Source: Candidatus Moraniibacteriota bacterium
Lineage (GTDB): Bacteria; Patescibacteriota; Minisyncoccia; Moranbacterales; JAPLXC01
Reading direction: 5' to 3'
DNA length: 64,000 nt
NCBI GenBank assembly: GCA_026396275.1
Contig: JAPLXC010000004.1
Coordinates: 1,193-65,192 of the forward strand
Positions 4,748 through 50,857 of the stretch are shown here, piece by piece. A program made the position numbers and the translations under genes. The notes under the pieces were generated by a model, which did not search any database, was not told where the DNA came from, and worked only from the letters and a program-made list of their open reading frames with translations. The stretch's first letter is position 1. Each line of letters starts with the position of its first letter.

Positions 4748-5962
4748 ATGAAATTTTCCGATATTTTCAAACTTTCAACCAGAATGTTCAAAGCGAGAAC
4801 TTCGCGCACGCTTCTTACGATTTTAGGCATGAGTATTGGAATCGGTGCTATTTTATTCCTGGTATCGCTTGGATACGGCTTGCAGAAAACCTTACTTAAT
4901 AAGATCACTACTTCCGACGCGCTGCTTACTCTGGATGTGACTGAAGCCAAATCAGCAACCGTTTTTCTTAATCGCGAGACCCTCAAAGTGATGGCAGAAA
5001 TGGAAGGGGTAGGGGAAGTAAGTCCCGCTTATCAGTTGAACGCCCAGGGACGCCTTGGCGATCTTTCAGCTGATTTTTCTGCCGTAGTGGTAAAGCCGTC
5101 ATTTCTAAAATTGGGGGGATATCGGGTAAGTCAGGGGCGCTTACTGAATGACGAAAGTCCTCAGGAAATTGTGGTTACTTCAACGGTCTCCCGCGTATTT
5201 GGGAAAAATGCGGATGAGATAATTGGAAAAGAAATAAAGTTTAGTTTTTTGGTGCCCGAGCAGGACAAAACAGGAGAAGTATCAAAAAATTCGCAAGTCA
5301 AGACAAAACGGGTGGAATCCGACAAAGCATACGTAGTAGCCGGCGTCATTGAAGGGGAGGATAGCATTATATATATCAATTCCAAGTCCCTTGATAATTT
5401 TTCCATTGATCATTTTAGCCAGGTTAAAGTGAAATGCAGAACGAATCAGGCGTTGGGGTTAGTTCGGGATCAGCTCATTAGCCAGGGATTTTTAGTATCG
5501 GCACTTTCCGATACGGTTGAGGAAGCAAACAAAGTGTTCAGGGCCATTCAGATTGTGCTAATGCTCTTTGGAGTTGTTGCTCTTGTAGTAAGCGCTATCG
5601 GGATGTTTAACACAATGACTATTGCTCTTTTGGAGCGGACGGAGGAAATCGGGATAATGAAGTCCATTGGCGCTTCCAATGCGGGAATATCTTTAATATT
5701 CGTTATGGAATCGGCTATTATGGGATTTTTGGGAGGAGTATGCGGTGTTTTTATCGGCTTTGTCAGCGGGGAGGTTTTTAATGGACTGATAAATTTTATT
5801 GCCCGGCGTTTTGGAGGAGAATCAGTGGACTTGTTCTACATTCCTTTGTGGTTCGTGCTACTTATCATTCTTTTTGCCGGTTTTGTTGGCTTTTCCACCG
5901 GGTTTATTCCGGCCAGACGGGCAAGCCACATTGATCCTCTGGAAGCTTTGAGGTATAAGTAA
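4748..5962 (+). CDS. FtsX/MacB-family ABC permease with a large extracytoplasmic domain
   Basis: One N-terminal TM, then a ~220-aa loop, then three C-terminal TMs. Translationally coupled to the ATPase (4-nt gap). Confidence 0.8.
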   Translation: MKFSDIFKLSTRMFKARTSRTLLTILGMSIGIGAILFLVSLGYGLQKTLLNKITTSDALLTLDVTEAKSATVFLNRETLKVMAEMEGVGEVSPAYQLNAQGRLGDLSADFSAVVVKPSFLKLGGYRVSQGRLLNDESPQEIVVTSTVSRVFGKNADEIIGKEIKFSFLVPEQDKTGEVSKNSQVKTKRVESDKAYVVAGVIEGEDSIIYINSKSLDNFSIDHFSQVKVKCRTNQALGLVRDQLISQGFLVSALSDTVEEANKVFRAIQIVLMLFGVVALVVSAIGMFNTMTIALLERTEEIGIMKSIGASNAGISLIFVMESAIMGFLGGVCGVFIGFVSGEVFNGLINFIARRFGGESVDLFYIPLWFVLLIILFAGFVGFSTGFIPARRASHIDPLEALRYK

Positions 5963-6806: not shown

Positions 6807-6937
6807 GAGATTAAGTAAAAAACTGATTGTTCCAGATAACTACGATCGCTGCCAAGTAGAATAATTGTTTTTGGCAAAGTCGGCTTTATAAAATCTTCCT
6901 TTTGACGGAGGGTTTTTTTGTTGATAAACTTAATAGT

Positions 6938-9889
6938 ATGGAAAAATACAACTCGCGGAAAATAGAGAAAAAGTGGCAGAAGAAATGGGAAGAAAGCGGA
7001 ATTTACAAGAATTACAAAAAAGACAAGAAATTCTACGCTCTTGATATGTTTCCTTATACCTCCGGCGAGGGTTTGCACGTGGGCCATCCGAGAGGATACA
7101 TCGCCACTGATGTCGTTTCCCGTTTCAAGATGCTTCAGGGAGCAAGCGTTCTTCATCCGATGGGATGGGACGCTTTTGGCTTGCCAACAGAAAATTACGC
7201 CATCGAGCATAAAATTCACCCGCGGATCGTGACCGAAAAAAATATTTCTGTTTTTAAAAAACAGCTTCAAATGTTTGGTTTTACCTATGATTGGGATCGG
7301 GAGATTAATACAACGGATCCGGGATATTACAAATGGACGCAGTGGATTTTTTTGAAAATGTTTGAAAAAGGACTGGCTTATGAGTCGAACGAGCCGATTA
7401 ACTGGTGCCCCTCCTGCAAGACAGGGCTGGCGCTGGAGGATTTGGAAAAAGGATTATGCGAACGTTGCGGAACGCAGGTAGTGCAGAAAAAAATGAGACA
7501 GTGGGTTTTAAGGATGACAAATTATGCTGATCGTCTGCTTTACGATCTGGACAGCGAAGATCTAGATTGGGAGGAGCAGATTTTAGAACAACAAAGAAAC
7601 TGGATCGGGAGAAGCGAGGGAACAGAGTTCAAGATGCCAGTTGTCATTGCGAGCGAAGCAAAGCAATCTCGTACAGAAGAATCAAATTCAGAGATTGCCG
7701 CGTCGCCTTCGGCTCCTCGCAATGACATCTATATTGAAGTTTATACCACCCGTCTGGATACGGCCTTTGGGATGACATATGCAGTAGTAGCACCGGAACA
7801 TCCAATCGTCGCTTCGCTTCTCAAAATCAAAAATCAAAAATCAAAAATCAAAAATATTGAAGAAATTAGAAATTATATAATCCGGTCACAGAATAAAACA
7901 GAGCTGGAAAGAATGGAGGCAAAGGAAAAAACAGGAATGGAAATTAAAGGAATAAAAGTTATAAATCCTTTCACTAATGAGGAAATTCCGTTATTTGTTG
8001 CCGATTATGTTTTAGGCCACTACGGCACCGGCGCAGTGATGGCTGTGCCAGCACACGATGAAAGGGACTGGGAATTTGCGAGGAAATATAATTTACCCAT
8101 AAAACAATCAATCGTTCCAAATTACAGAGAATATGAAACTACAATAAAGACCCTAAATGCACTTAGAGAAATCTATAGAGCAGCTGAAAAAAAAGACTTA
8201 AGATTTTGGCTACTTGGCGGACTAGCTTGCGCTTTTTATGCGGGAATAATTTATAGGGAACACAATGATTTAGATTTAATTACCGAAAATGAAAATGACC
8301 GTATTAAAATGTTTCAATTATTGGAAAATTTGGGATTTAAAAAAATAAAGGAGAAAAAAATATCAGAAAATCTCATCAACTTTGTTTATCAACGAGGAGA
8401 AATTGAAGTTGATATTGGACCCAATCAAGGCGAATTTGGTTTGGCTGGTGATTTTGAGGAAGATATTAAATATCTAGGAGAATACCAGTCAAGAGTATTA
8501 AGCAAACGATTTGTCAAAAGTTTTAAAGAATATCAGTTGAAGACTAGAGATGAAAAAAAAGACCAAATAGACGTGGAATATTTAAGTGGTAAAGTTTTGA
8601 TTGATGATGAAGTATTGGTTAATTCTGAAAAATATTCAGGACTAACTTCCCAAAAAGCCCGAGAGGAAATGGCAAAGTGGCTGGAGAAACAAAGAATCGG
8701 CAAGAAAAAAATAAATTACAAAATGCGTGACTGGGTGTTTTCCAGACAGCGTTACTGGGGAGAACCCATTCCCATAATTCACTGCGAGAAATGCGGTGCA
8801 GTAGGGGTGCCGGAGAAGGAATTGCCTGTTACTTTGCCGGATGTTGAAAGTTACGAGCCGACCGGGACGGGCGAATCGCCACTGGCGAATATCAAAGATT
8901 GGGTGAACACCACTTGTCCCAAATGCGGCGGACCGGGAAAAAGAGAAACCAATACTATGCCTCAATGGGCGGGCTCCTCCTGGTATTATCTTCGCTACAT
9001 TGATTCAAAAAATGAAAAGGAACTTGTTGGAAAAAAAGAAGAAAAAAAGTGGATGCCGGTGGATCTCTATGTGGGCGGGATAGAACACGCTACTCGTCAT
9101 CTTCTCTACGCACGATTCTGGCACAAGTTTTTATACGATATTGGTGTTGTTTCCACAAAAGAGCCGTTTAAAAAATTAGTTCACGTCGGGCTCATTGGCG
9201 GAGAGGACGGCAGAAAAATGTCCAAGCGCTGGGGCAATGTCGTCAGTCCTAACGACGTGATAGAACAATTCGGAGCGGACTCAATCAGATTGTATGAAAT
9301 GTTTATGGGGCCTTTCACCCAGGGTATTTCATGGAGTACGGCAGGGGTAAGTGGGATGAGGAGATTTTTGGAGAAAGTATGGAAATCGCAAAATCGAATT
9401 ATGAATTACGAATCAGGAATTAAGAATAACGTTGAAAATTTATTGCATAAGACAATCAAAAAAATAACAGAAGATATAGAAAATTTCCGATTTAATACCG
9501 CACTAAGCTCGATGATGATATATATTAATCAACTTGAGAAACAAAAGAAAATATCCATGATTCATTATTCACAATTCCTAATTCTATTGAGTCCCTTCGC
9601 CCCCCATATCGCCGAAGAGCTATGGGAGAAACTAGGACACAAAGAAAGCATATTCCGGCAGTCCTGGCCGAAGCATAATCCGCAATTGATAAAAGACGAG
9701 GAAATAGATCTGGTAATCCAAGTCAATGGAAAAGTCCGCGACACTGTTAAAGTATCAGCCGATATTTCCGAAGATGAAGCGAAAAAACTAGCCTTTGAAA
9801 ATCAAAAAGCAAAAACCTTTACAAAGGAAAAAGTAATTAAAAAGGTCATTTTTGTAAAAGGCAAGTTAATTAATATCGTAGTTTCTTAG
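6938..9889 (+). CDS. leuS: Leucyl-tRNA synthetase with an embedded ~165-aa nucleotidyltransferase-like domain and two short repeat-derived insertions
   Basis: HIGH motif (HVGHPRGY), KMSKR, and the zinc ribbon CPSCK...CERCG are present. Likely start is the second Met (MEKYNSRKIEKKW). An extra segment with W..GG...R.H.D.D motif lies between the CP1 domain and the body. Confidence 0.9.
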   Translation: MEKYNSRKIEKKWQKKWEESGIYKNYKKDKKFYALDMFPYTSGEGLHVGHPRGYIATDVVSRFKMLQGASVLHPMGWDAFGLPTENYAIEHKIHPRIVTEKNISVFKKQLQMFGFTYDWDREINTTDPGYYKWTQWIFLKMFEKGLAYESNEPINWCPSCKTGLALEDLEKGLCERCGTQVVQKKMRQWVLRMTNYADRLLYDLDSEDLDWEEQILEQQRNWIGRSEGTEFKMPVVIASEAKQSRTEESNSEIAASPSAPRNDIYIEVYTTRLDTAFGMTYAVVAPEHPIVASLLKIKNQKSKIKNIEEIRNYIIRSQNKTELERMEAKEKTGMEIKGIKVINPFTNEEIPLFVADYVLGHYGTGAVMAVPAHDERDWEFARKYNLPIKQSIVPNYREYETTIKTLNALREIYRAAEKKDLRFWLLGGLACAFYAGIIYREHNDLDLITENENDRIKMFQLLENLGFKKIKEKKISENLINFVYQRGEIEVDIGPNQGEFGLAGDFEEDIKYLGEYQSRVLSKRFVKSFKEYQLKTRDEKKDQIDVEYLSGKVLIDDEVLVNSEKYSGLTSQKAREEMAKWLEKQRIGKKKINYKMRDWVFSRQRYWGEPIPIIHCEKCGAVGVPEKELPVTLPDVESYEPTGTGESPLANIKDWVNTTCPKCGGPGKRETNTMPQWAGSSWYYLRYIDSKNEKELVGKKEEKKWMPVDLYVGGIEHATRHLLYARFWHKFLYDIGVVSTKEPFKKLVHVGLIGGEDGRKMSKRWGNVVSPNDVIEQFGADSIRLYEMFMGPFTQGISWSTAGVSGMRRFLEKVWKSQNRIMNYESGIKNNVENLLHKTIKKITEDIENFRFNTALSSMMIYINQLEKQKKISMIHYSQFLILLSPFAPHIAEELWEKLGHKESIFRQSWPKHNPQLIKDEEIDLVIQVNGKVRDTVKVSADISEDEAKKLAFENQKAKTFTKEKVIKKVIFVKGKLINIVVS
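7643..7726. mobile_element. MITE-like palindromic element family A (GTCATTGCGAGCGAAGC...CTCGCAATGAC), 84 nt, in-frame inside leuS
   Basis: Terminal inverted repeats gtcattgcgag / ctcgcaatgac. Encodes VIASEAKQS... in the leuS frame and SLRGAEGDAAIS on the opposite strand, the usual signature of this repeat family. Confidence 0.6.
7823..7855. repeat. (AAAATCA)x4 heptamer tandem repeat, in-frame in leuS
   Basis: Direct read. Encodes KIKNQKSKIKN. Same repeat occurs in rnhB and the GT4 gene at 48093. Confidence 0.7.
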
Positions 9890-12407: not shown

Positions 12408-12567
12408 ATTATAGTGTTATCCCTTAAGGAACAGCGACTTTACGGTGTGAATAAAACGAATCTTACAAAAAAGATCAGGCGAGAACCCTGTTCTTTAATT
12501 TTCTTAATATTTAGATTATTCCACTTGGCAACGATCGCGGCTATCTGGAATAATCAGTTTTTTTACT

Positions 12568-15507: not shown

Positions 15508-15930
15508 ATGGCAAAGAAAATCAAAACAGTGGTAAAATTGCAAATTCCAGCCGGAAAAGCTACTCCAGCTCCTCCTATTGGGCCGGCCTTAGGCCAGCAT
15601 GGACTGAATATCCAGGATTTTTGCGTGAAATTTAACGAAAAGACAAAAGACAAAGGAGAAGATGTTATTCCAGTGGAAATCACCATTTACGAGGACCGGA
15701 CTTTTGAATTTATTATGAAAACTCCTCCGGCGGCGGAACTTCTCAAAAAAGCGGCTGGCATTGAAAAAGGAGCGGCTAATCCCTTGAAAGACAAGGCGGG
15801 AAAAGTGACCAAAGAGCAAATTCGCCAAATTGCCCAAACCAAAATGGCCGATCTTAATGCCAATGATATTGAAGGAGCGGAAAAAATTGTAGAAGGGACG
15901 GCAAGGAGCATGGGGATAAAAATAGAGTAA
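15508..15930 (+). CDS. rplK: 50S ribosomal protein L11
   Basis: [27 protein letters not shown]. Confidence 0.9.
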
Positions 15931-16012
15931 TTCTCTACGAAGTACGAACGCCTACGAAACTACGAAAATATAAATTAAAGTTCGTAATTTCGTAAATTTC
16001 GTAATTTGTAGA
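15931..16012. repeat. Intergenic TACGAA/TTCGTA repeat palindrome (rplK-rplA leader). Member of a dispersed AATTCTCTACGAA...TACGAA motif family
   Basis: taattctctacgaagtacgaacgcctacgaaactacgaaaat ... agttcgtaatttcgtaaatttcgtaatttgtag. The two arms are roughly complementary. Confidence 0.5.
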
Positions 16013-16814: not shown

Positions 16815-17831
16815 ATGAATATAAAGGTAAGGAAGATAAGGGAAGATGCTAAAGTTCCAATTAGGGCATCTGATGGTGCAGTAGGATATGATGTTTTTGC
16901 TTCAAGGGTACTGGATAAATTTACCAAGGAAGTAATTCAGGATTTGCCGGTAGAAATACTTGGTGGCGCTAGTGTATTAATCGGTATTGGAGTAAAAATG
17001 GCTGTGCCCTGGCCGTATGAGTGCCAAGTTAGACCCAGGAGTGGTCTTGCGAGTAAATTTGACATCGAACTTTCTAATTCTCCAGGAACAATAGATCCCG
17101 ACTTCAGGGGCGAAGCAGGTGTTCTTTTGAGAAATAGAGGAAAAGAAACTTTTGTTGTGGAAAAGAATATGAGAATTGCTCAATTAATTTTCTCTAAAGT
17201 CGAAATCCCGATTTTAGAAGAAACGAAAGAGCTCCCTGCAACTAGGAGGGGAACTGGCGGTTTTGGATCAACAGGACTTCATGGAGATGGATTAGGGACT
17301 GATGAATATAATGAATACATAAAAGAAATGGATAGGTATTATATGAGAGTGGTTCTTGCAGTAGCGGATCGCTCCACATGTGTCAGGGGGGTAAAAAAAG
17401 TAAATGGTAAATATGAAAGAGATAAAAAGGGAAAATTGGTTGGCCAGAATCGCAGATTCGGTTGTGTGATTGTGAAGAATGATAATATCCTTGCTCAAGG
17501 TTTTAATGACCAATATTACGGTTCTCCAAAATGTGCTGACGCAGGATGTTTGAGGGAGGAGTTGAATATTCCCTCTGGTACGCAAATTGAAAAATGCAGA
17601 GCAATGCATGCCGAGTGGTGGGCATTCACTAATGCAGGTAAAATGGATAGCTCGCCGACACTTAAAGGTGCTACTGTCTATGTCAATGCGGAACCATGCG
17701 AAATATGCGCAAAGATGATTGTTGGTTTTGAGATTGATACAGTTGTTTTACTAAAAGGTATTTATCCAACTAATGGCATCAGGATTTTAAAAGAAGGAGG
17801 AGTGAATATAAGGTATATTGAAATTAATTAA
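16815..17831 (+). CDS. Fusion protein: N-terminal dUTPase-like domain plus C-terminal dCMP/cytidine deaminase zinc-binding domain
   Basis: N-terminal half has dUTPase motifs (GYDVFAS, GTIDPDFRGE, RRGTGGFGSTG). C-terminal half has the deaminase signature HAEWWA...PCEICAKMI. Confidence 0.7.
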   Translation: MNIKVRKIREDAKVPIRASDGAVGYDVFASRVLDKFTKEVIQDLPVEILGGASVLIGIGVKMAVPWPYECQVRPRSGLASKFDIELSNSPGTIDPDFRGEAGVLLRNRGKETFVVEKNMRIAQLIFSKVEIPILEETKELPATRRGTGGFGSTGLHGDGLGTDEYNEYIKEMDRYYMRVVLAVADRSTCVRGVKKVNGKYERDKKGKLVGQNRRFGCVIVKNDNILAQGFNDQYYGSPKCADAGCLREELNIPSGTQIEKCRAMHAEWWAFTNAGKMDSSPTLKGATVYVNAEPCEICAKMIVGFEIDTVVLLKGIYPTNGIRILKEGGVNIRYIEIN

Positions 17832-19874: not shown

Positions 19875-19878
19875 AAAT

Positions 19879-19934
19879 GTCACTCCGGGCTTGATCCGGA
19901 ATCTAATTAGATTCTGAAACAAGTTCAGAATGAC
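19879..19934. mobile_element. MITE-like palindromic element family B (GTCA[CT]TCCGG...CCGGAATCTA...GAATGAC), thyA-folA spacer
   Basis: gtcactccgggcttgatccggaatctaattagattctgaaacaagttcagaatgac. Nested hairpins. Confidence 0.55.
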
Positions 19935-19947
19935 ATATTAAAATGTA

Positions 19948-25037: not shown

Positions 25038-25078
25038 AAAAATAGGTCTCGATATTAATCGAGACCTTAAAAATTTTA
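25036..25078. terminator. Bidirectional rho-independent terminator (ggtctcgat-atta-atcgagacc with A/T runs on both sides)
   Basis: Read directly. Shared by the small Cys-rich ORF (+) and miaA (-). Confidence 0.6.
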
Positions 25079-26002
25079 TTTTAAGAATTTTTCACTTGCT
25101 TCCTTAATTTTCTTATAACTTTCTAGCCATTCAACTCTTTTGTCTTTCCTGAACCATGTCATTTGCCGTCTGGCGTAGTTTTTAATTTCTTGATAAAGTT
25201 TTTCTTTCATTTCCTGAAGTCCTATTTTCTTTTGCAGATACAGCGCAATCCAGTGATATTCAAGGCCGAAACTTTCCAGCCGTTTCCATCTTACGCCATA
25301 TTTAAAATGCAAATCTTTTACTTCCTTTATCATTCCCTGATAGAATCTTTTTTCTAACCGAACTTTGATATTTTTGTGCAATTTTTCTTTTGGCAGTTTT
25401 ATTCCAATCTGAAGAAATTGGAAATTGGAAATTGGAAATTGGAAATTTGGTTTTGGGACATATCCCAAAACTTTGGCTATCTCAATTGCCCTAATCAACC
25501 TCACTTTATTATTTTTGTCAATATTTTTCGCTCTTTCGAAATCTAATTTTTGAAGCATTTTAAATAATGTTTCCGCGGACCTGTTGCGTAACTTGTTACG
25601 TAACTCTTTATTGGGCGCAACGGCGGGGAACTGGACATTATCCATAATGGCTTTGATCCAAAATCCTGTCCCGCCGCAAATAATAGGCAATTTACCGCGT
25701 TTTAAAAGAGCAGGGATAATTTTGTCAACTGCTTTTTTAAATTTTGCTACATTATATTCAGTTTTTGGGCTAACAATATCTATCATGTAGTGGGTAATTC
25801 CTTCGGATATAAATGTTTTATGCTTCATGTTGCATGTTCCATGAATCTTGCCTGTTCCTATGTCCATATGACGATATACTTGCCGGCTGTCAGCTGAAAT
25901 CACCTCGCCGCCGAATTTTTTGGCAAGTTTAATCGCAACGTCAGACTTGCCGCTGGAAGTTGGCCCCAATATTACAATAATTTTACCACTCGAATTTTTC
26001 AT
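25076..26002 (-). CDS. miaA: tRNA dimethylallyltransferase
   Basis: ILGPTSSGKSDVAIKLAKKFGGEVISADSRQVY. Likely start is MKNSSGKIIV (ATG at 26002 rather than the TTG at 26020). Contains two repeat-derived in-frame insertions. Confidence 0.9.
   Translation of the reverse strand: MKNSSGKIIVILGPTSSGKSDVAIKLAKKFGGEVISADSRQVYRHMDIGTGKIHGTCNMKHKTFISEGITHYMIDIVSPKTEYNVAKFKKAVDKIIPALLKRGKLPIICGGTGFWIKAIMDNVQFPAVAPNKELRNKLRNRSAETLFKMLQKLDFERAKNIDKNNKVRLIRAIEIAKVLGYVPKPNFQFPISNFQFLQIGIKLPKEKLHKNIKVRLEKRFYQGMIKEVKDLHFKYGVRWKRLESFGLEYHWIALYLQKKIGLQEMKEKLYQEIKNYARRQMTWFRKDKRVEWLESYKKIKEASEKFLK
25414..25448. repeat. (GAAATTG)x4-5 heptamer tandem repeat, in-frame in miaA (encodes NFQFPISNFQF)
   Basis: Direct read. 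The complementary heptamer CAATTTC array is in rnhB. Confidence 0.7.
25813..25869. repeat. ATG-rich dispersed repeat (ATGTTTTATGCTTCATGTTGCATGTTCCATG), in-frame in miaA
   Basis: Near-identical strings at 47940..47968, 50862..50893 and 27215..27262. Confidence 0.45.
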
Positions 26003-26012
26003 ACTAAATGAA

Positions 26013-26048
26013 ATATGCAAATCCTTGCATATGCAAGGATTTGCATAT
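26013..26048. promoter_or_regulatory. Perfect 36-nt palindrome ATATGCAAATCCTTGCAT|ATGCAAGGATTTGCATAT in the miaB-miaA spacer
   Basis: Both halves checked against each other. 10 nt upstream of the miaA start. Confidence 0.5.
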
Positions 26049-26066: not shown

Positions 26067-27440
26067 TTATGATAAAATTCCCTCTAAATTCCAAATGTTA
26101 GCTTTAATAATTTTAATTTTGACAAATTTGCCAACGAGATTTTTTTGAGCGCTTTTAAATTTTACATTCTTCATTGTTCTGGTTCTGCCGAAATAAAATC
26201 CATCTTTTTGGCTGTCTATTATGACTTTAAATATTTTTCCCAAATAATTTTTATTATTCTCAAATGCCGTAATTTTCAGAATTTCATTCAAAAATTTTTC
26301 CCGCCTTTCTTTTTCTTTTTTGGAAACATTATCTTTCATCTTCCAAGCGGCGGTTCCCGGGCGGGGAGAAAATTGGCCAAAGTAAACCATATCATATTTG
26401 ACTTTTCTCATAATTTCAGCGGATTTGGCAAATTGTTTTCTGGTTTCCCCGGGAAAACCAACAATTATGTCAGAGGTTATCGCATATAAAACTCCCGGCT
26501 TGTATTTAGTAAACGCGGATTTAATTTTTTTAATCAGTCCCGGATAATGTCTGGCCGTATAGTTTCTGTTCATTCTTCTTAGTATTTCGTCGTCTCCGGC
26601 CTGGATGGGAAGATGCACATATTCACAAACTTTTTCGCATTTAGCAATTGTCTTAATCAATTCATCTGACATATCTTTCGGGTGGCTGGTTAGAAAATGA
26701 ATCCAGAAATTGCCGGAGATAGCATTTATTTTTTTAAGAAGCTTGGAAAAGTTTATTTTTCTATAATTATAAGAATTCGCGTTTTGTCCAAGTAAAATAA
26801 TTTCTTTATATCCCTTTTTCACTAAAACTCTGACTTCCTTAATAATTTCCTTTGCCGGACGGGAAATTTCCCTCCCTCGGGCATAGGGGACAACGCAATA
26901 AGAGCAAAAGTTGTTGCAGCCGGTCATGATCGGCACGAAGGCAGAATATTTTGTGTTGTATTTTGGCTCAATGTTTAGGTAATTGTCATTGCGAGGGAGC
27001 CCGTCAAAGGCGGATAAACTCCGCGACCGTGGTAATCCTGTAGATTTATCATCATTTAAATTATCTAGAGATTGCTTCCACCGCCAAGGTGAGGTCGCAA
27101 TGACAGACAAAATTTTTTCCGGGAATTCTTTTATTCCACAAAACAAATCAACTTTATCTTTTAACCTTCTCTGCACATCTTTTCTATTTGCCAAGCACCC
27201 GGTTAAAACAATAATCTTTTTTGTTCTATGTTTTGTGTTCCATGTTGTAAGATTATGTATTTGTCCATAAACCCGATCCTCTGCGCTTTGGCGCACGCCG
27301 CAGGTGTTGAAAATCACCAGATTGGCCTCATTGATATTTTTCCCTGGCTTAAATTTATGCAATTCCAAAAATGCCGCAATTCGTTCAGAATCGCTATAAT
27401 TCATCTGACAACCAAAGGTTTTAATAAAATATTTTTTCAT
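26067..27440 (-). CDS. miaB: tRNA-i6A37 methylthiotransferase (MiaB family, radical SAM)
   Basis: N-terminal MTTase domain (FGCQMN), radical SAM CNNFCSYC, TRAM C-terminus. Confidence 0.9.
   Translation of the reverse strand: MKKYFIKTFGCQMNYSDSERIAAFLELHKFKPGKNINEANLVIFNTCGVRQSAEDRVYGQIHNLTTWNTKHRTKKIIVLTGCLANRKDVQRRLKDKVDLFCGIKEFPEKILSVIATSPWRWKQSLDNLNDDKSTGLPRSRSLSAFDGLPRNDNYLNIEPKYNTKYSAFVPIMTGCNNFCSYCVVPYARGREISRPAKEIIKEVRVLVKKGYKEIILLGQNANSYNYRKINFSKLLKKINAISGNFWIHFLTSHPKDMSDELIKTIAKCEKVCEYVHLPIQAGDDEILRRMNRNYTARHYPGLIKKIKSAFTKYKPGVLYAITSDIIVGFPGETRKQFAKSAEIMRKVKYDMVYFGQFSPRPGTAAWKMKDNVSKKEKERREKFLNEILKITAFENNKNYLGKIFKVIIDSQKDGFYFGRTRTMKNVKFKSAQKNLVGKFVKIKIIKANIWNLEGILS
26985..27104. mobile_element. 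MITE-like palindromic element (family A-related, GTCATTGCGAG...GTCGCAATGAC), 120 nt in-frame in miaB
   Basis: Terminal inverted repeats. Encodes a 40-aa insert (SPWRWKQSLDNLNDDKSTGLPRSRSLSAFDGLPRNDNY) ahead of the radical-SAM cysteine motif. Confidence 0.55.
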
Positions 27441-27451
27441 TCAATTTATAT

Positions 27452-27516
27452 GTCATTCCGGACTCCAATCCGGAATCTAGTTAATTTTACTGGATTCCCG
27501 CCTGCGCGAGAATGAC
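27452..27516. mobile_element. MITE family B copy, 12 nt upstream of the miaB start codon
   Basis: gtcattccggactccaatccggaatctag...ctggattcccgcctgcgcgagaatgac. Confidence 0.55.
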
Positions 27517-27630
27517 AGTTAAAATTGCTTGACAGCTAAAGGTTTTGATGAAATACTTCATGGAAGTTTCTTTAACAAACAAGTATTCATTAGGATACTT
27601 AATAATAAAACTAAAATCAAGGGAGGATAA

Positions 27631-37015: not shown

Positions 37016-37065
37016 GTTTGCAGGGTAGTTCTCTACGAATTACTAATCACATACGAATGTACGAA
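37016..37065. repeat. TACGAA motif family copy (ttctctacgaattactaatcacatacgaatgtacgaatc)
   Basis: Nearly identical in reverse complement to 46843..46880, upstream of mreB. Confidence 0.5.
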
Positions 37066-37428
37066 TCCGTGATTTGATTATAGCAGGTTTGGGGAAAAAG
37101 AAAAGAAGCGACGGTTTATATGTCGCTTCTAGCGGTTTTTAAACAAGGAATGCTTCACATTACCAAGGCGTCCTTCTTCGGGTTTTACTCTCAATTTTGC
37201 CAATATCAGTTGGTAATTTGTTCAGTTCCACCATTTTTTCGTAGAAGCTTTTTAAGCTTCTTCCGGAGGCCTTTAATGCTTCGTGCAAATAAAGAATTAT
37301 AACTGCCGGAAGAAGGATAATTAATCCTGCTAATACTTTTAAAACTTCTATCGGATGAAGGTACCACCTATAACTTTTCATTAGTTCCTCCTTTGCTGTG
37401 AACTTATTTAAGATGTTATAATAAATTT

Positions 37429-38142
37429 ATGAAAAAGTCAACCTTTGAACTAGAAAATAAATTATTGAATGATGGCTATGATTTTATTATCGGCATTGAT
37501 GAGGCGGGGAGAGGGCCATTGGCGGGCCCCGTCGTTGCTGCTGCAACGATAACCCGCAATTTCCAATTTCCAAATCTCAATTTCCAAAAAAATGTCAAAT
37601 GTCAAATGTCAAATGTCAAGATGTTTGATCTTATCCGCGATTCAAAAACCTTATCTGCGAAGCAGCGGGAAAAATTATTTGATTTCATTCAAGAACACTT
37701 TTACGTAGGGATCGGAATTTGCGATCACCGGACAATTGACAAGGTAAATATTTTGCAAGCGAGTTTTTTGGCGATGAAAGCGGCCCTATCAGACCTGAAA
37801 TCAAAAATCAAAAATCAAAAATCAAAATTACAATTTAAAAATCAAAAAGAAATATTAGACACCAGGTACAAAATACCAGATACAAAATACATAGTACTCG
37901 TTGATGGCAAGCACAAAATTCCCAATTTTTCCCATAAGCAAAAAAATATCGTCAGCGGTGACAAACTTGTGAAATCCATTTCCGCTGCTTCAATTGCGGC
38001 TAAAGTCACCCGTGACCGGATAATGTTGAAAATGCATAAAAAATATCCACACTATGGATTTAGATTAAAAAAGCATGGACCTTGCCGAATTCACCGGAAA
38101 AGTTTTAAGCCGGTAGAAAAACTTGTCAAAGCAAAGAAATGA
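37429..38142 (+). CDS. rnhB: Ribonuclease HII, with two in-frame heptamer-repeat insertions
   Basis: IIGIDEAGRGPLAGPVVAAA. Insertions at 37557..37619 and about 37795..37842. Confidence 0.85.
   Translation: MKKSTFELENKLLNDGYDFIIGIDEAGRGPLAGPVVAAATITRNFQFPNLNFQKNVKCQMSNVKMFDLIRDSKTLSAKQREKLFDFIQEHFYVGIGICDHRTIDKVNILQASFLAMKAALSDLKSKIKNQKSKLQFKNQKEILDTRYKIPDTKYIVLVDGKHKIPNFSHKQKNIVSGDKLVKSISAASIAAKVTRDRIMLKMHKKYPHYGFRLKKHGPCRIHRKSFKPVEKLVKAKK
37557..37619. repeat. Nine consecutive heptamers (CAATTTC x2, CAAATCT, CAATTTC, CAAAAAA, ATGTCAA x4), 63 nt, in-frame in rnhB
   Basis: Direct read. Encodes NFQFPNLNFQKNVKCQMSNVK. Confidence 0.7.
37795..37842. repeat. (TCAAAAA)n heptamer tandem repeat in-frame in rnhB
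   Basis: Encodes KSKIKNQKSKLQFKNQK. Same unit as in leuS and GT4. Confidence 0.7.
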
Positions 38143-38419: not shown

Positions 38420-38510
38420 GTTAATTCTCTACGAACTACGAATTTTTACGAATGTACGAATCTTGGTTGTTTTATTTTTTCGTACTTTAGTACTTGTTCG
38501 TAATTCTTAG
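38420..38510. repeat. TACGAA motif family copy (aattctctacgaactacgaatttttacgaatgtacgaatc ... ttcgtactttagtacttgttcgtaattc)
   Basis: Shares aattctctacgaa with 15931 and 37020. Confidence 0.5.
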
Positions 38511-39011: not shown

Positions 39012-39135
39012 TAATTTTTTAAATCCGAAATCCCAAGCTCAAATTTCAAATAAAATCCAAAATCCCAAATCTAAAATTTATTAATTTGGAATTGGAATTT
39101 CATTTGGCATTTGGATTTTGAACTTTGGATTTATC
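39012..39135. repeat. Long AT-rich imperfect palindrome in the nusB-rnc spacer
   Basis: aaatccaaaatcccaaatctaaaattt ... tttggaattggaatttcatttggcatttggatttt. Confidence 0.45.
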
Positions 39136-39141
39136 ATCTTT

Positions 39142-42262: not shown

Positions 42263-42362
42263 AATAAATCAAAAATTAAAATGCAAAAATCAAAATGACA
42301 ATGCAAAGTCCAAAAAGAATAATTTTCTTTTTATATTTTAATTTGTCATTCCTGCCCGCCGG
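42262..42362. repeat. AAAATCA / AAATG-CAA heptamer-family intergenic copy followed by a family-B-like half element with a 20-nt perfect palindrome CCTGCCCGCCGGCGGGCAGG
   Basis: Read directly. The palindrome resembles the D-loop insert of the interrupted tRNA. Confidence 0.45.
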
Positions 42363-46762: not shown

Positions 46763-46766
46763 TAGT

Positions 46767-46833
46767 GTCATTCCCGCGGAAGCGGGAATCCAGTATTTAT
46801 CTTTCTGGATTCCGGCTCGGAGGCCGGAATGAC
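46767..46833. mobile_element. MITE family B copy (gtcattcccgcggaagcgggaatccag ... ggattccggctcggaggccggaatgac)
   Basis: Terminal GTCATTC/GAATGAC plus two internal hairpins. Spurious antisense ORF 46768..47085 ends in ...GFPLPRE. Confidence 0.55.
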
Positions 46834-46842
46834 ATAATTATA

Positions 46843-46880
46843 TGATTCGTATATTCGTAAGTGATTAGTAATTAGTAGCC
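46843..46880. repeat. TACGAA-family motif upstream of mreB (gattcgtatattcgtaagtgattagtaattagtag)
   Basis: Near-identical to the reverse complement of 37020..37060, upstream of dnaE. Confidence 0.5.
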
Positions 46881-47896: not shown

Positions 47897-47968
47897 TTCA
47901 TATAACATATAACATGAAACATGTAACAGAATAATTGTTTTATGTTTTATGCTTTATGCTTCATGTTG
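47897..47968. repeat. ATG-rich repeat family (CATATAACATATAACATGAAACATG ... ATGTTTTATGCTTTATGCTTCATGTTG)
   Basis: Partner copy at 50837..50893. Its 3' end supplies the annotated N-terminus (MFYALCFM) of the GT4 ORF. Confidence 0.5.
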
Positions 47969-49186
47969 ATTGGCATTGATGCTTCCCGGGCTTTTATTAA
48001 AAACCGCACGGGAATTGAGGAATATTCTTATCAAGTAATCAGAAACCTGGTCCCGCTACTTAAAGATGATCAGGTTGTTTTATATGTGAGAAAAAATCAA
48101 AAATCAAAAATCAAAAATCAAAATGTCAATGTAAAAATTAAAATTATTAAATTTCCCTTTTTATGGACTCAATTAGGTTTGTCGCTGGAAATGCTGTTTC
48201 ACCCCGTTGACGTATTGTTTATCCCGGCGCATACGGTACCGATAATCCATTCCAAAAATACAATCGTGACAATCCACGGACTGGAATATGAATTTTTCCC
48301 GCGGGCTTATTCTTTTTGGGAAAGATTATATATGCGCTGGTCGATAAGAAATTCGTGCCGGTGGGCAAAAAAAATAATCGCGGTTTCAAATAATACTAAA
48401 AAAGATTTAATGAGATTGTATAAGGTGCCGGAAGAGAAGATTGAAGTTATTTATGAAGGCTATGAGGATTGTCATTCCGGGCTTGACCCGGAATCTAGTC
48501 TAAAAAACTTAGATGCTACACTGGATTCCCGTTTTCACGGGAATGACAAATATTTATTATTCATCGGCCGATTAGAAGAACGCAAAAATATAGTTGGTAT
48601 TATTAGGGCCTTTGAGATATTAAAAAAGCAACATAAAATTCCGCACAAATTAATACTCGCCGGAAAATTCGGTTATGGTGAAGATAAAATAAAAAATTAT
48701 ATTTCCAAATCGTCTTATAAGTCCGAGATAATTACGCCTGGATATATTAGCGAAGAAGAAAAATGGGAACTTTTAAAAAATTCCGACGTATTTTTATTCC
48801 CGACTTTTTATGAAGGTTTTGGCCTGCCGATTCTTGAAGCCCAAAGCGCGGGAGTGCCGGTGGTGGCGGGTAATAATTCGTCAATACTGGAGATCACTAC
48901 AGTATCTGCCTCCCCTCAGATGAGGGGAGGAAATGAAGGAGGGGAGTTGAAAAAAACATATGATCAGCCCCTCACTCTTAATCCCTCTCCCCATTTGGGG
49001 CGAGGGGGAGTAGAGTCCACACTTTTAGTGAATCCTCATAACCCCGAAAAAATTGCCGAAGCAGCCTATAAGCTTATTTCTAACAAGGCCTTGAGAGATG
49101 ATATAATACAAAGAGGCTATGAGAATGTGAAGAGGTTTGGGTGGGGAAAGTGCGCTGATCAAATTGCTAAATTATTAACAAAATAA
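47963..49186 (+). CDS. Glycosyltransferase family 1 (GT4), carrying three in-frame repeat or MITE insertions
   Basis: EGFGLPILEAQSAGVPVVAG. Start is probably the internal Met (MLIGID), since the upstream codons come from a repeat. Confidence 0.8.
   Translation: MLIGIDASRAFIKNRTGIEEYSYQVIRNLVPLLKDDQVVLYVRKNQKSKIKNQNVNVKIKIIKFPFLWTQLGLSLEMLFHPVDVLFIPAHTVPIIHSKNTIVTIHGLEYEFFPRAYSFWERLYMRWSIRNSCRWAKKIIAVSNNTKKDLMRLYKVPEEKIEVIYEGYEDCHSGLDPESSLKNLDATLDSRFHGNDKYLLFIGRLEERKNIVGIIRAFEILKKQHKIPHKLILAGKFGYGEDKIKNYISKSSYKSEIITPGYISEEEKWELLKNSDVFLFPTFYEGFGLPILEAQSAGVPVVAGNNSSILEITTVSASPQMRGGNEGGELKKTYDQPLTLNPSPHLGRGGVESTLLVNPHNPEKIAEAAYKLISNKALRDDIIQRGYENVKRFGWGKCADQIAKLLTK
48093..48150. repeat. (AAAATCA)x4 plus an ATGTCAA-like heptamer repeat in-frame in GT4
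   Basis: Encodes KNQKSKIKNQNVNVKIKI. Confidence 0.7.
48471..48547. mobile_element. MITE family B copy inserted in-frame in GT4 (encodes CHSGLDPESSLKNLDATLDSRFHGNDK)
   Basis: gtcattccgggcttgacccggaatctag ... ctggattcccgttttcacgggaatgac. Confidence 0.55.
48903..49015. mobile_element. GC-rich multi-hairpin palindromic insertion in-frame in GT4 (cctcccctcagatgaggggagg ... ccctctccccatttggggcgaggggg)
   Basis: Local GC spike. Encodes SASPQMRGGNEGGELKKTYDQPLTLNPSPHLGRGGVES, interrupting the GT-B C-terminal domain. Confidence 0.5.
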
Positions 49187-49642: not shown

Positions 49643-50857
49643 ATGCAAAAAAGTCAAGCCCGTAAAGATGCTTCGCATCCATGGGCCAAGGAATTAAAAG
49701 TAGCTCTTATTCACGATTTTCTCCTTTACCCTGGCGGGGCGGAGAGGGTTTTGGAAGTGCTCGCGGAGATGTTTCCGGAAGCGCCTATTTATACGTTACT
49801 TTATGATCCGGAAAAAATGAGGGGGAAGTTTTCCGGTAAGGACATTCGCGTTTCATATCTCCAGAAATTTCCTAAGTTTTTACGCAAACGCTACCAGTGG
49901 CTTCTGCCGCTTTTCCTGGTTGTTCCGGAAACGTTCGATCTTCGCGATTTTGATCTGGTAATATCGTCTTCCGGCGCCTGGTCAAAAGGAATTGTTACCA
50001 AGCTCAATACCATTCATATCGCCTACATTCACTCGCCGATGCGCTTTGTGTGGGACTATAACGAGCGGTACCTAAAAGAACAAGGACAAAAGAAAATCTG
50101 CTTATTAAAAAGGTTTATTTTAAGCTACGCCCGCCTCTGGGATCGCCTGGCAGCCGACCGGCCGGATTATTTGATCGCTAATTCGAAGTACACACAGGAA
50201 AGGATAAAAAAATATTACCGGCGTGAAAGCACGGTTATTTACCCGCCGGCATATATTGATGTCGTTGCGAGAAGCGAAGCGGCGCGGCAATCTCGTTCAA
50301 ATAAGGATAGTGTTATTACTCCGGGGTCCCTCGATTTTGCTCGGGACGAAGAGAAATTCTTTCTCGTCGTTTCCCGTCTCTCTCCCTACAAAAAAGTTGA
50401 CGTTGCGGTCGAGGCCTTCAATAAACTAGAACTGCCTTTAGTTGTTATTGGAGAAGGGAAGCAGGAAAAGTACCTGAAGCTAATCGCTCGAGGAAATATT
50501 CAGATACTGGGCTGGCAGAATGATGAAACAGTAGAGCGTTATTATTCAGGTGCCCGGGCTTTTATATTTCCCGCCGAAGACGACTTTGGCATTACGATGG
50601 TTGAAGCAATGAGTCATGGTATTCCAGTAATTGCCTATGGCAAGGGCGGGGCAATAGAGATAGTTCAAGAGGCAGTTACCGGAGAGTTTTTTCATGCCCA
50701 AACGCCGGAAGTTCTGGCTGACGGAGTGAGAAGATTTATGGAGAAGGAAAAAAAATATGATAAGGAAAAGATAAGAAAAAAAGCGGAGGAATTCAGTAAG
50801 GAGAAATTTAAGAAAGAGTTCAGGGAGTTTGTAAATCATATAACATATAACGTATAA
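49643..50857 (+). CDS. Glycosyltransferase family 1 (GT4) with an in-frame MITE family A insertion
   Basis: FPAEDDFGITMVEAMSHGIPVIAYGKGG. Confidence 0.8.
   Translation: MQKSQARKDASHPWAKELKVALIHDFLLYPGGAERVLEVLAEMFPEAPIYTLLYDPEKMRGKFSGKDIRVSYLQKFPKFLRKRYQWLLPLFLVVPETFDLRDFDLVISSSGAWSKGIVTKLNTIHIAYIHSPMRFVWDYNERYLKEQGQKKICLLKRFILSYARLWDRLAADRPDYLIANSKYTQERIKKYYRRESTVIYPPAYIDVVARSEAARQSRSNKDSVITPGSLDFARDEEKFFLVVSRLSPYKKVDVAVEAFNKLELPLVVIGEGKQEKYLKLIARGNIQILGWQNDETVERYYSGARAFIFPAEDDFGITMVEAMSHGIPVIAYGKGGAIEIVQEAVTGEFFHAQTPEVLADGVRRFMEKEKKYDKEKIRKKAEEFSKEKFKKEFREFVNHITYNV
50261..50375. mobile_element. MITE family A copy (gtcgttgcgagaagcgaagcggcgcggcaatctcg ...) in-frame in the second GT4
   Basis: Encodes VVARSEAARQSRSNKD. 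Antisense frame reads SLREAKRRGNL. Right boundary approximate. Confidence 0.5.

What the first reader, a model, noticed from the sequence alone, without database searches (positions are those of the whole stretch)
7643..7726. MITE family A (GTCATTGCGAGCGAAGC...CTCGCAATGAC) inserted in-frame in leuS, miaB and a glycosyltransferase
Three copies sit at 7643..7726 in leuS, 26985..27104 in miaB and about 50261..50375 in the second GT4 gene. All lie inside ORFs and preserve the frame. They translate to the VIASEAKQS / ARSEAARQS peptide family on the gene strand and to SLRGA(E/K)... on the opposite strand. These are classic signatures of a widespread palindromic mini-element. Its presence inside essential translation and tRNA-modification enzymes (RPE-like behaviour) implies tolerated surface-loop insertions and ongoing element activity.
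Basis: seen in the sequence. Interest (0 to 1): 0.55.

Follow-up and report, generated by a model that had tools for sequence, protein, structure and literature searches.

The report
REP-like hairpin repeats inside essential genes
Short palindromic "selfish" DNA repeats, of a type found across many bacterial phyla and in phages, sit in frame inside flexible loops of three conserved enzymes of a tiny candidate-phylum bacterium; this was already known from Rickettsia, and here the same few loops are hit again and again in related genomes.

Summary
Copies at 7643-7726 (leuS) and 26985-27104 (miaB) are complete. The third (GT4) is 50261-50347, not ~50375, and only its left half is family A. All three keep the reading frame.

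The element is not a classical MITE, because it has no target-site duplication. It is a head-to-head doublet of (C/T)GTC-tagged hairpin units. That is the CGTC-tagged REP superfamily of Di Nocera et al. 2013, which includes Rickettsia RPE-4/RPE-6 and Neisseria dRS3 and has no known transposase. Family A is a variant of it: a 5-bp ATTGC/GCAAT base, a GAG/GAA internal loop, and a covarying apical hairpin, often the GC-GNA-GC minihairpin.

The window comes from a Candidatus Moranbacteria genome (Patescibacteria). The same termini occur in Alpha-, Gamma- and Deltaproteobacteria, Bacteroidota, Chloroflexi, Planctomycetota, Cyanobacteria, Patescibacteria and phage contigs.

Each insertion lies in a loop or linker that is hypervariable among about 110-120 orthologs and has low AlphaFold confidence. 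Many orthologs carry other palindromic families at the same spot. Family A-bearing LeuS genes are scattered in the tree. Their element nucleotides are conserved far beyond synonymous expectation. So the inserts are not one passively inherited insertion.

"Ongoing activity" in this genome is not shown, and the mobilising enzyme remains unknown. Verdict: a new variant of a known kind, of moderate interest.

The parts
7642..7727 (+). Family A doublet, copy 1, in leuS. It consists of T, a left unit at 7643-7670 (GTC ATTGC GAGCGAAGCAAA GCAAT CTC), a spacer at 7671-7690, a right unit at 7691-7726 (GAG ATTGC CGCGTCGCCTTCGGCTCCTC GCAAT GAC), and A.
   Evidence: Sequence read. Covariance-model hit at E=1.8e-17. 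Folds as one long hairpin, z=-4.3 as DNA and as RNA. In frame, 28 codons.
26984..27105 (-). Family A doublet, copy 2, in miaB (the gene is on the minus strand). It is 120 nt. The outer arms match 10 of 11, the inner arms are partly eroded, and the side hairpins are enlarged.
   Evidence: Covariance-model hit at E=3.6e-4. Fold z of about -2.7 to -3.1. Encodes aa 113-152 in the linker between the UPF0004 and radical-SAM domains.
50260..50347 (+). Copy 3 in the second GT4 gene, a hybrid (heterodimer). The left unit is family A (GTCGTTGCGAG..GCAATCTC, 50261-50294). The right unit is a different, decayed hairpin: GTCCC (50326-50330), a 12-nt loop, and GGGAC (50343-50347).
   Evidence: Covariance-model hit at E=0.039. 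No significant fold, z of at least 0. It lies in the linker between the two GT4 domains (Pfam domain limits aa 202 and 234).
6902..9889 (+). leuS host gene. The ATG used by NCBI is at 6938, giving 983 aa.
   Evidence: Pfam tRNA-synt_1, the editing domain and Anticodon_1. 100% identical to a protein annotated as Candidatus Moranbacteria.
26067..27440 (-). miaB host gene. miaA lies next to it at 25076-26020.
   Evidence: Pfam UPF0004, Radical_SAM and TRAM. IPPT for miaA. PDB 7mjz aligns along the full length with the gap at the linker.
49643..50857 (+). GT4 glycosyltransferase number 2, host gene of copy 3.
   Evidence: Pfam Glyco_transf_4 and Glycos_transf_1. Orthologs.
48470..48548 (+). Sister-family (CGTC-1-type, 'family B') doublet in GT4 number 1. 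It sits at the equivalent interdomain linker and encodes CHSGLDPES...LDSRFHGND.
   Evidence: Covariance-model hit at E=0.0019. Pfam domain limits aa 174 and 198.
46766..46834 (.). Sister-family CGTC-1-type doublet, intergenic between the NUDIX and mreB genes: TGTC ATTCCCGC GGAA GCGGGAAT CCA ...
   Evidence: Covariance-model hit at E=2.4e-6. Gene map.
27451..27517 (.). Sister-family doublet, intergenic, just upstream of the miaB start.
   Evidence: Covariance-model hit at E=0.019.
19878..19935 (.). Sister-family doublet (TGTCAC..ATGACA) that fills the thyA-folA spacer.

Best explanation
Family A is a dispersed, non-coding palindromic repeat of the REP type. It is a head-to-head doublet of two (C/T)GTC-tagged hairpin units that together fold into one long imperfect hairpin.

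Each unit has these parts, in order:
- the tag YGTC;
- a 5-bp base ATTGC/GCAAT;
- a conserved GAG...G(A/T/C)(A/G) internal loop;
- an apical stem-loop whose sequence is free but whose pairing is kept, often the GC-GNA-GC minihairpin;
- a 3-nt tail (CCA or CTC) that pairs with the tail of the partner unit.

Shown: the doublet occurs in many bacterial phyla and in phage structural-gene modules. It has no target-site duplication. It has no linked gene. It belongs by anatomy with the CGTC-tagged REPs, the group that contains Rickettsia RPE-4/-6 and Neisseria dRS3.

Inferred: it spreads as a non-autonomous element, moved in trans by an enzyme that recognises the tagged hairpin in single-stranded DNA. 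A RAYT/IS200-like HUH enzyme is the obvious candidate, but none is identified.

Shown, apart from the selection step, which is inferred: in a gene-dense Patescibacteria genome the surviving copies are either intergenic or in sites where an insertion does no harm. Such copies have a length that is a multiple of three. They lie in one of the two reading frames whose termini have no stop (VIA...PRND here). They sit in a surface beta-hairpin turn of the LeuS editing domain, in the MiaB inter-domain linker and in the GT4 inter-domain linker.

Inferred: the inserts are translated as disordered 28-40-residue loops. The same permissive loops are colonised repeatedly and independently in related genomes by this and other palindromic families.
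For: Anatomy, from 259 units:
- Tag C 175 / T 72.
- Tail CCA 134, CTC 55.
- Loop modes 12 and 18 nt.
- The central N of GAGCG-N-AGC is free: C35, A31, T14, G4.
- 72 different apical stem arms of at least 4 bp lie between constant 'ga' and 'gNR'.
- Tails of the two units covary, for example CG 60 / UA 26 and AU 53 / CG 29. The flank pair -1/+1 is CG 62, UA 16, UG 14, other 8.
- No target-site duplication in 91 of 98 copies. Position -1 is C/T in 93 of 98 and +1 is G/A in 96 of 98.

L164, L192 and L202 are phage structural modules.

Known family: the definitions in PMC3733652 match tag, AT-start, tail and head-to-head dimers. That paper also reports intragenic 20-30-aa inserts such as VIPAKAGIQ..LDSRLRGND. 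A model of family A also detects the window's CGTC-1-type doublets.

Tolerated sites:
- The LeuS baseline is 30 aa between WIGRSEG and TTRxDT. About 40% of 119 orthologs carry diverse inserts there.
- The MiaB linker spans 66-111 aa and the GT4 linker 31-104 aa, with many palindromic-peptide families in each.
- T. thermophilus LeuRS has only 3 residues in that turn.
- AlphaFold pLDDT is below 50 for LeuS 241-261, between confident strands. It is 44-50 for the MiaB insert.

Not passive inheritance:
- Family A LeuS genes are scattered in the tree with insert-free sisters.
- The termini are perfectly kept in L121 and L122.
- Third-position identity is 45/54 in the element against 1001/1832 in the rest of leuS, p=2e-5.
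- Length mod 3 is uniform genome-wide, but all three intragenic copies are multiples of 3.
Against: - No transposition event, empty/filled allele pair at species level, or mobilising enzyme was observed.
- No transposase, integrase or HUH domain was found in 47 ORFs of the window.
- No gene family was enriched next to 120 genomic copies or between paired copies.
- The window's copies are mutually divergent, so recent activity here is unproven.
- Single units fold weakly on their own, so the 'unit hairpin' rests on covariation, not energy.
- The outer 11-bp helix is invariant by construction of the search pattern and says nothing.
- Family A fails two numerical criteria of the published CGTC families (stem 8-9 bp, loop 4-5 nt).
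- Translation of the inserts is inferred only.
- The LeuS loop in occupied alleles is not simply 'empty loop plus element': 6 loop residues are replaced by the element plus about 2 residues. Insertion history at that site is therefore not fully resolved.
Confidence: 0.8

Rival explanations
1. It is a classical MITE. On this view it is a deletion derivative of a DDE-transposase insertion sequence, recognised through its terminal inverted repeats and inserted by cut-and-paste with a target-site duplication.
For: There are perfect 11-12-bp terminal inverted repeats (TGTCATTGCGAG/CTCGCAATGACA). The size of 70-120 bp is in the MITE range. The TG...CA ends resemble many DDE element ends (own knowledge).
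Against: No target-site duplication in 91 of 98 copies. No IS-like partner was found in the window or near 240 loci. The internal anatomy is two tagged hairpins with covarying apical stems and tails, which is the REP/REPIN logic. Tag, AT-start and CCA tail match the CGTC REPs.
Confidence: 0.07
2. It is primarily a functional nucleic-acid structure kept by the host, for example an mRNA hairpin that modulates decay, RNase III processing or ribosome pausing, or a DNA structure used in replication or recombination. On this view its presence in genes is selected for, not merely tolerated.
For: Element nucleotides are conserved beyond coding needs. There is structural covariation. The fold z-score is -4.3. 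The window encodes RNase III. Bulged heterodimers are proposed in PMC3733652 to escape or attract endoribonucleases.
Against: Presence or absence is patchy among close orthologs. Completely different families occupy the same loops. Copy 3 has lost all structure yet persists. No Rfam family matches. Copy numbers vary greatly between genomes (paper).
Confidence: 0.1
3. It is a vertically inherited, lineage-specific peptide insertion with a protein-level role, and it only happens to be palindromic.
For: The same peptide type (VIAS.AKQS...PRND) is found at the same LeuS loop in six orthologs, at the MiaB linker in six, and at the GT4 linker in four including the window's own hybrid copy.
Against: The same DNA occurs intergenically and in unrelated phyla and phages. 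Bearers are scattered in the tree. Synonymous sites are conserved to the family consensus. The insert is predicted disordered. The peptide differs by frame and orientation.
Confidence: 0.02
4. It is an intervening sequence removed after transcription or translation (a mini-intron or intein-like element), or it is an assembly artefact.
For: None is positive. Only the oddity of a roughly 29-bp hairpin inside essential genes points this way.
Against: There is no intron or ribozyme match in Rfam. At 28-40 aa it is too short for an intein (own knowledge). The frame and stop-free reading are maintained, which would be unnecessary if the segment were removed. The same arrangement appears in independent assemblies from NCBI, JGI, ENA and Logan.
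Confidence: 0.01

Closest known systems
CGTC-tagged REPs (Di Nocera, De Gregorio & Rocco 2013, BMC Genomics 14:522; PMC3733652). The group includes Rickettsia RPE-4/RPE-6 and Neisseria dRS3.
   Same: An unpaired CGTC/TGTC tag. A stem beginning with A-T, T-A. A 3-nt tail fitting CCA. Mostly head-to-head dimers that can fold as one hairpin. Hybrid dimers exist. Intragenic copies encode 20-30 aa (VI....ND peptides). No associated transposase. The window's 'family B' doublets fit the CGTC-1 definition exactly (8-bp stem, 4-nt loop, CCA tail).
   Different: The family A unit has a 5-bp base, an internal loop and a variable apical hairpin (total 'loop' 12-27 nt). The published families have an 8-9-bp stem and a 4-5-nt loop. 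The string ATTGCGAG is absent from that paper's text and from the supplements held as text; its Figure 2 could not be read. That paper reported CGTC repeats in 5 phyla, mostly in Alphaproteobacteria. Here the family also occurs in Patescibacteria, Bacteroidota, Chloroflexi and phage contigs.
Rickettsia palindromic elements (RPE; Ogata et al. 2000, as summarised in PMC10969869 and PMC3733652)
   Same: Palindromic repeats inserted in frame in unrelated housekeeping genes of a reduced genome. The products are presumed functional, and the inserts are thought to sit where the fold tolerates them.
   Different: The host phylum differs (Patescibacteria) and the sequence family differs. RPE-1 is about 150 bp. 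Here the same loop is shown to be occupied by many different families across orthologs.
REPIN / RAYT systems (Bertels & Rainey 2011; own knowledge plus abstracts listed)
   Same: Two inverted REP units separated by a spacer form a long hairpin and evolve as one unit. There is no target-site duplication. They are non-autonomous.
   Different: REPINs carry the GTAG tag, are lineage-specific and vertically inherited, and have a single-copy RAYT flanked by the same REP. Here the tag is YGTC and the sequence is shared across phyla and phages. No RAYT is linked. The one Y1_Tnp gene seen nearby (L122) is associated with another palindrome.
Bacterial MITEs such as Correia/NEMIS, ERIC and Coxiella QMITE (reviewed in PMC10969869)
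   Same: Small size, terminal inverted repeats, no coding capacity of their own, and occasional in-frame fusions.
   Different: MITEs have target-site duplications and IS-derived TIRs. Family A has neither.
d(GCGNAGC) GNA-triloop DNA minihairpins (Hirao, Yoshizawa and co-workers; own knowledge, not checked in the library)
   Same: The short unit's apex is GC-GNA-GC with a free central N.
   Different: That is a biophysical motif, not a genetic element. Whether the element acts as DNA or RNA is not decided here.

Membership tests
CGTC-tagged REP superfamily (PMC3733652) | Unpaired terminal tetranucleotide CGTC (TGTC or CCTC allowed) | tested here: met
   The base before GTC is C in 175 and T in 72 of 259 units. 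The window copies read TGTC.
CGTC-tagged REP superfamily (PMC3733652) | Stem begins with complementary A-T residues at positions 1 and 2 | tested here: met
   ATTGC...GCAAT is invariant in 100 aligned elements.
CGTC-tagged REP superfamily (PMC3733652) | Stem of 8-9 bp | tested here: not met
   There is only a 5-bp basal stem, followed by a GAG/GNR internal loop and a separate apical helix.
CGTC-tagged REP superfamily (PMC3733652) | Loop of 4-5 nt | tested here: not met
   The segment between ATTGC and GCAAT is 12 nt (96 units), 18 nt (45 units) or up to about 27 nt. The apex itself is often a 3-nt GNA loop.
CGTC-tagged REP superfamily (PMC3733652) | Short unpaired tail fitting CCA | tested here: met
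   Tail CCA in 134 and CTC in 55 of 259 units. The window copies use CTC. In dimers the two tails pair with each other.
CGTC-tagged REP superfamily (PMC3733652) | Predominantly head-to-head dimers | tested here: inconclusive
   All window copies are head-to-head. However, the collection scans were designed to find dimers, so predominance over singletons was not measured.
CGTC-tagged REP superfamily (PMC3733652) | No dedicated transposase gene associated | tested here: inconclusive
   None in the window. None enriched in 120 loci or between paired copies. Whole genomes were not searched.
MITE | Target-site duplication flanking the element | tested here: not met
   91 of 98 copies have none, and the remainder have 1-3 nt, consistent with chance.
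MITE | Terminal inverted repeats shared with a parent insertion sequence | tested here: inconclusive
   The TIRs exist, but no IS with these ends was seen in any locus read. Public IS collections were not searchable.
REPIN-RAYT | Two inverted REPs that fold into one hairpin and evolve together | tested here: met
   Fold z=-4.3. The tails and flank pair covary.
REPIN-RAYT | GTAG tag and a cognate single-copy RAYT flanked by the same REP | tested here: not met
   The tag is YGTC. The only Y1_Tnp seen (L122 6880-7539) is flanked and interrupted by a different palindrome. The rest of the window's genome is not available.
Rickettsia palindromic elements (behavioural class) | Palindromic repeat inserted in frame in genes that stay functional | tested here: met
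   The frame is kept in leuS, miaB and two GT4 genes. Function is inferred from intact conserved domains and confident AlphaFold cores.
Any Rfam RNA family | Match to a curated covariance model | tested here: not met
   No hit at the gathering threshold in the window, at E<=1 on 7560-7810, or in L018, L040 and L122.

The most novel reading that the evidence does not exclude
Family A may be one sequence family of a pan-bacterial, phage-carried class of YGTC-tagged hairpin doublets whose mobilising machinery is still unknown. In gene-dense Patescibacteria these doublets would not merely survive by chance. They would have a real preference for a small set of loop- or linker-coding sites in essential genes (LeuS editing-domain hairpin, MiaB linker, GT4 linker). 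They would be kept there as nucleic-acid structures under constraint. This would make them a recurrent generator of loop and linker diversity in a phylum with minimal genomes. It would also make them a tractable handle for finding the missing enzyme by phylogenetic profiling.
Probability: 0.25. Interest if true: 0.7.

Novelty: new variant of a known kind. Interest (0 to 1): 0.45.

Why it matters
Annotation: peptides such as VIASEAKQS...PRND, SLRGAE... or CHSGLDPES... in Patescibacteria proteins are repeat-encoded loops, not domains. They inflate protein lengths and seed spurious 'hypothetical proteins' in other phyla.

Biology, four points:
- In-frame colonisation of essential genes, famous in Rickettsia, also operates in the candidate phyla radiation.
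- Three unrelated enzymes each have one permissive site that is hit again and again by different repeat families. This gives natural insertion-tolerance maps.
- Near-identical units are shared between a 41%-GC Moranbacterium, Alphaproteobacteria and phage modules. This points to horizontal spread of a repeat class for which no transposase has been found since 2013.
- The conserved tag, base and internal loop with a free but paired apex define a precise recognition target for finding that enzyme.

Tried and rejected
- Literature search for the exact DNA and peptide strings found only unrelated primers. Searches combining Patescibacteria/CPR with palindromic or RPE terms found nothing relevant.
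- Rfam gave no family.
- BLAST of copy 1 against plasmids gave no match. BLAST of a consensus against cultured phages gave only half-unit matches in Helicobacter canis phage records. Short queries have low power.
- A phmmer search of the 32-aa insert peptide against 1.84 billion representatives gave only 2 hits at E<=0.001. The query is too short to be informative.
- Stop-to-stop ORF overlap of elements in high-GC genomes (42 of 125) was rejected as evidence of intragenic location, because spurious ORFs abound there.
- The Y1_Tnp gene near leuS in L122 looked like a candidate mobiliser. However, it is flanked and interrupted by an unrelated palindrome, not family A.
- Clustering of 3049 ORFs from 120 loci gave only ordinary large families: ABC transporters, response regulators, SDR, LysR and similar.
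- Genes bracketed by two copies are ordinary cargo or phage structural genes.
- No relative of the window's genome is closer than about 64-75% protein identity. No species-level empty/filled pair could therefore be examined, and the metagenome scan was not spent.


Full report
**1. The observation**

Copy 1 reads TGTCATTGCGAG...CTCGCAATGACA at 7642-7727, with an 84-nt core at 7643-7726. It begins on a codon boundary of the leuS ORF and encodes VIASEAKQSRTEESNSEIAASPSAPRND.

Copy 2 (26985-27104, 120 nt, one mismatch in the right terminus) lies in miaB on the minus strand. It encodes VIATSPWRWKQS...GLPRND.

Copy 3 starts at 50261 with GTCGTTGCGAG...GCAATCTC, in frame in the second GT4 gene. It has no CTCGCAATGAC end. 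Its right half is another hairpin (GTCCC, 12 nt, GGGAC) ending at 50347. The element is therefore 87 nt and a hybrid, not about 115 nt.

Pfam confirms the three host genes. The terminal 11-mer with up to 1 mismatch occurs 5 times against 0.73 expected.

A covariance model built only from elements of other genomes recovers copy 1 at E=1.8e-17, copy 2 at 3.6e-4 and copy 3 at 0.039. It finds no further family A copy in the window.

**2. Source organism**

The window is from a Candidatus Moranbacteria (Patescibacteria/CPR) genome. LeuS, MiaB and GT4 each have a 100% match annotated as such on a 76-kb NCBI contig. The 47 main ORFs are housekeeping genes. None has a transposase, integrase or HUH domain.

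**3. Anatomy**

The 120 loci came from Alpha-, Gamma- and Deltaproteobacteria, Bacteroidota, Chloroflexi, Planctomycetota, Cyanobacteria and Patescibacteria.

Reading these copies shows that the element is two units in head-to-head orientation. Each unit has five parts:
- a base Y (C 175, T 72 of 259) before GTC;
- ATTGC;
- a segment of mostly 12 or 18 nt that starts with GAG and ends with G(A/T/C)(A/G);
- GCAAT;
- a 3-nt tail (CCA 134, CTC 55).

The 12-nt form is GAGCG-N-AGCGAA, with N = C35, A31, T14, G4. That is GC-GNA-GC with a free loop centre. In longer forms the middle is a stem-loop whose sequence varies while the pairing is kept. There are 72 different stem arms of at least 4 bp, for example GGCCCC-aaa-GGGGCC and GGCTCGCC-gca-GGCGAGCC.

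The tails of the two units covary with each other. So does the base pair formed by positions -1 and +1 (CG 62, UA 16, UG 14, other 8). The doublet therefore propagates as one hairpin.

There is no target-site duplication in 91 of 98 copies. Copy 1 folds as a long hairpin (z=-4.3 as DNA or RNA). Copy 2 folds less well (z about -3). Copy 3 does not fold significantly.

**4. What is known**

These features are those of the CGTC-tagged REPs defined by Di Nocera et al. 2013 (PMC3733652):
- a CGTC or TGTC tag;
- a stem starting with A-T pairs;
- a CCA tail;
- mostly head-to-head dimers, with hybrid dimers also seen;
- intragenic copies encoding 20-30 residues, such as VIPAKAGIQ...LDSRLRGND;
- no dedicated transposase.

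That paper equates CGTC-1 and CGTC-4 with Rickettsia RPE-6 and RPE-4, and CGTC-1 with Neisseria dRS3.

The window's other doublets fit CGTC-1 literally: TGTC ATTCCCGC GGAA GCGGGAAT CCA... at 46766-46834, 48470-48548, 27451-27517 and 19878-19935. The family A model also detects three of them; it did not report 19878-19935.

Family A differs in unit architecture. It has a 5-bp base, an internal loop and a variable apex, instead of an 8-9-bp stem with a 4-5-nt loop. Its signature string is absent from that paper's text and supplements. I therefore file it as a variant of that superfamily, not as one of its four described families, and not as a MITE. No Rfam family matches.

**5. Where the inserts sit**

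*LeuS.* In 119 LeuS orthologs the distance from WIGRSEG to TTRxDT is 30 residues in the majority. About 40% carry extra sequence exactly in the turn between the two strands. It comes from many kinds of repeat: VIAS..PRND in six, and also VILNGAERSEES..AQDD, VIPASEPES..QND, VINGGSTS.., ISNFQFPISN.. and others. T. thermophilus LeuRS has 3 residues in that turn, and HMMER splits the alignment precisely there. AlphaFold gives pLDDT below 50 for residues 241-261, between confident strands 225-237 and 265-270.

*MiaB.* The segment between the N-terminal domain and the radical-SAM cysteines spans 66-111 residues in 108 orthologs. It carries family A in six and other palindromic families in many more. 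The window's insert has pLDDT 44-50 in an otherwise confident model.

*GT4.* The inter-domain linker spans 31-104 residues, with the same picture. The paralogous GT4 at 47942-49186 has a CGTC-1-type doublet at the equivalent linker.

**6. Inherited or repeatedly gained?**

Four observations bear on this:
- In a neighbour-joining tree of LeuS with the loop removed, the six family A bearers are scattered. Each has insert-free close relatives.
- The left boundary differs by one codon between families and orthologs.
- At the DNA level, two orthologs 61-75% identical in protein (L121, L122) keep perfect TGTCATTGCGAG...CTCGCAATGACA termini. An insert-free relative (L123) has an ordinary six-codon loop.
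- Among codons for identical amino acids, third positions agree in 45 of 54 inside the element but in 1001 of 1832 in the rest of leuS (p=2e-5).

The element is thus held to its family consensus beyond coding needs. The cause is recent independent insertion, conversion from other copies, or structural constraint. A passively inherited peptide insertion is excluded.

The same 33-nt unit (ATTGCCGCGTCGCCTTCGGCTCCTCGCAATGAC) is identical in the window and in a Beijerinckiaceae MAG.

**7. Spread and mobilisation**

The full element is also present in at least 120 IMG/VR contigs. L164 carries three copies between portal, protease, tail-collar and baseplate genes. L202 and L192 carry copies around capsid and adaptor genes. 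Phages are therefore a plausible vehicle; this is an inference.

No candidate enzyme emerged:
- ORFs around 120 genomic copies cluster only into ordinary families.
- Genes bracketed by two copies are ordinary.
- The Y1 transposase near leuS in L122 belongs to another palindrome.

The absence of duplication, the tagged hairpin and the free-but-paired apex fit recognition of a folded single strand by a RAYT/IS200-like enzyme. That is an inference by analogy and not a result.

**8. Why in frame**

Genome-wide, element lengths are spread evenly over the three residue classes modulo 3 (44/44/37). The three intragenic copies here are 84, 120 and 87 nt.

With a length divisible by three, the termini read VIA...PRND or SLR...LAMT in two frames. 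In the third frame they read HCE...SQ-stop, from direct reading of the termini. Selection therefore leaves only in-frame, stop-free copies in places where a 28-40-residue disordered loop is harmless.

**9. Limits**

- Recent activity in this genome is not shown. The copies are divergent, copy 2 is eroded and copy 3 is a decayed hybrid.
- Translation of the inserts, the DNA-versus-RNA level of the structure, and the mobilising enzyme are all unresolved.
- The outer helix was fixed by the search pattern, so it carries no covariation information.
- The NJ tree is approximate.

**10. Verdict**

This is a real and correctly spotted feature. The 'RPE-like' reading is right and the 'MITE' label is wrong. 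It is a new structural variant of the known CGTC-tagged REP class, seen in a new host phylum, with a notable hot-spot pattern and cross-phylum plus phage distribution. Interest is moderate.

Noticed in passing
window 8140-8620 (leuS, aa ~414-570 of the 995-aa ORF): LeuS carries a folded nucleotidyltransferase-like domain (Pfam PF10706 Aminoglyc_resit, and PF14907) inserted after the editing-domain core. Many other Moranbacteria LeuS carry a NUDIX domain (PF00293) instead. AlphaFold models the inserted domain with pLDDT 85-97.
   Followed up: partly
window 7823-7878; also 37778-37853, 42263-42336, 48090-48164: An (AAAATC)n-type simple repeat lies inside leuS, 100 nt downstream of copy 1. It encodes KIKNQKSKIKN, 7 residues more than T. 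thermophilus LeuRS at that point. The same motif recurs in intergenic spacers.
   Followed up: partly
window 19878-19935, 27451-27517, 46766-46834, 48470-48548: Four doublets of a sister family fit the published CGTC-1 definition (TGTC, 8-bp ATTCC... stem, 4-5-nt loop, CCA tail). Three are intergenic. One is in frame in GT4 number 1, at the same inter-domain linker as copy 3 in GT4 number 2.
   Followed up: yes
window 6817-6865 and 12515-12563: A 49-nt inverted repeat (88% complementary) brackets the leuS-sua5-glmS block. Its nature is unknown (pair I1).
   Followed up: no
window 15928-15966, 38422-38460, 37033-37067, 46844-46878: TACGAA-rich dispersed repeats occur in intergenic spacers. They are another small repeat family of this genome (D15 and I2).
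   Followed up: no
L122 6880-7539 (Y1_Tnp), with palindromes at 7320-7353, 6829-6867, 5911-5958: A Patescibacteria Y1 (IS200/RAYT-type) transposase gene is itself interrupted in frame, and flanked, by a different palindromic repeat (AGCCACTCGGTGGCTT / AAGCCACCGAGTGGCT). This is a possible REP-RAYT pair in a CPR genome.
   Followed up: partly
LeuS orthologs P0086 and P0098: Two orthologs carry a roughly 200-residue extra segment in the very same beta-hairpin turn. In P0098 it directly follows a family A element. The turn therefore tolerates whole domains.
   Followed up: no
window 39118-39825: An RNase III gene is present (Pfam Ribonucleas_3_3 plus dsrm). The long mRNA hairpins formed by intragenic doublets would be potential substrates unless their bulges protect them. 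This is speculation.
   Followed up: no
L164 842-919, 6429-6511, 8549-8631; L202; L192: Family A doublets lie between phage structural genes (portal, XkdF protease, tail collar, baseplate J, capsid, adaptor) in IMG/VR contigs.
   Followed up: partly
window 16815-17831: A single ORF combines dUTPase/dCTP-deaminase-like and dCMP deaminase domains. It sits within a nucleotide-metabolism cluster that includes thyA, folA, tmk, a second thymidylate-synthase-like gene and a separate dUTPase.
   Followed up: no
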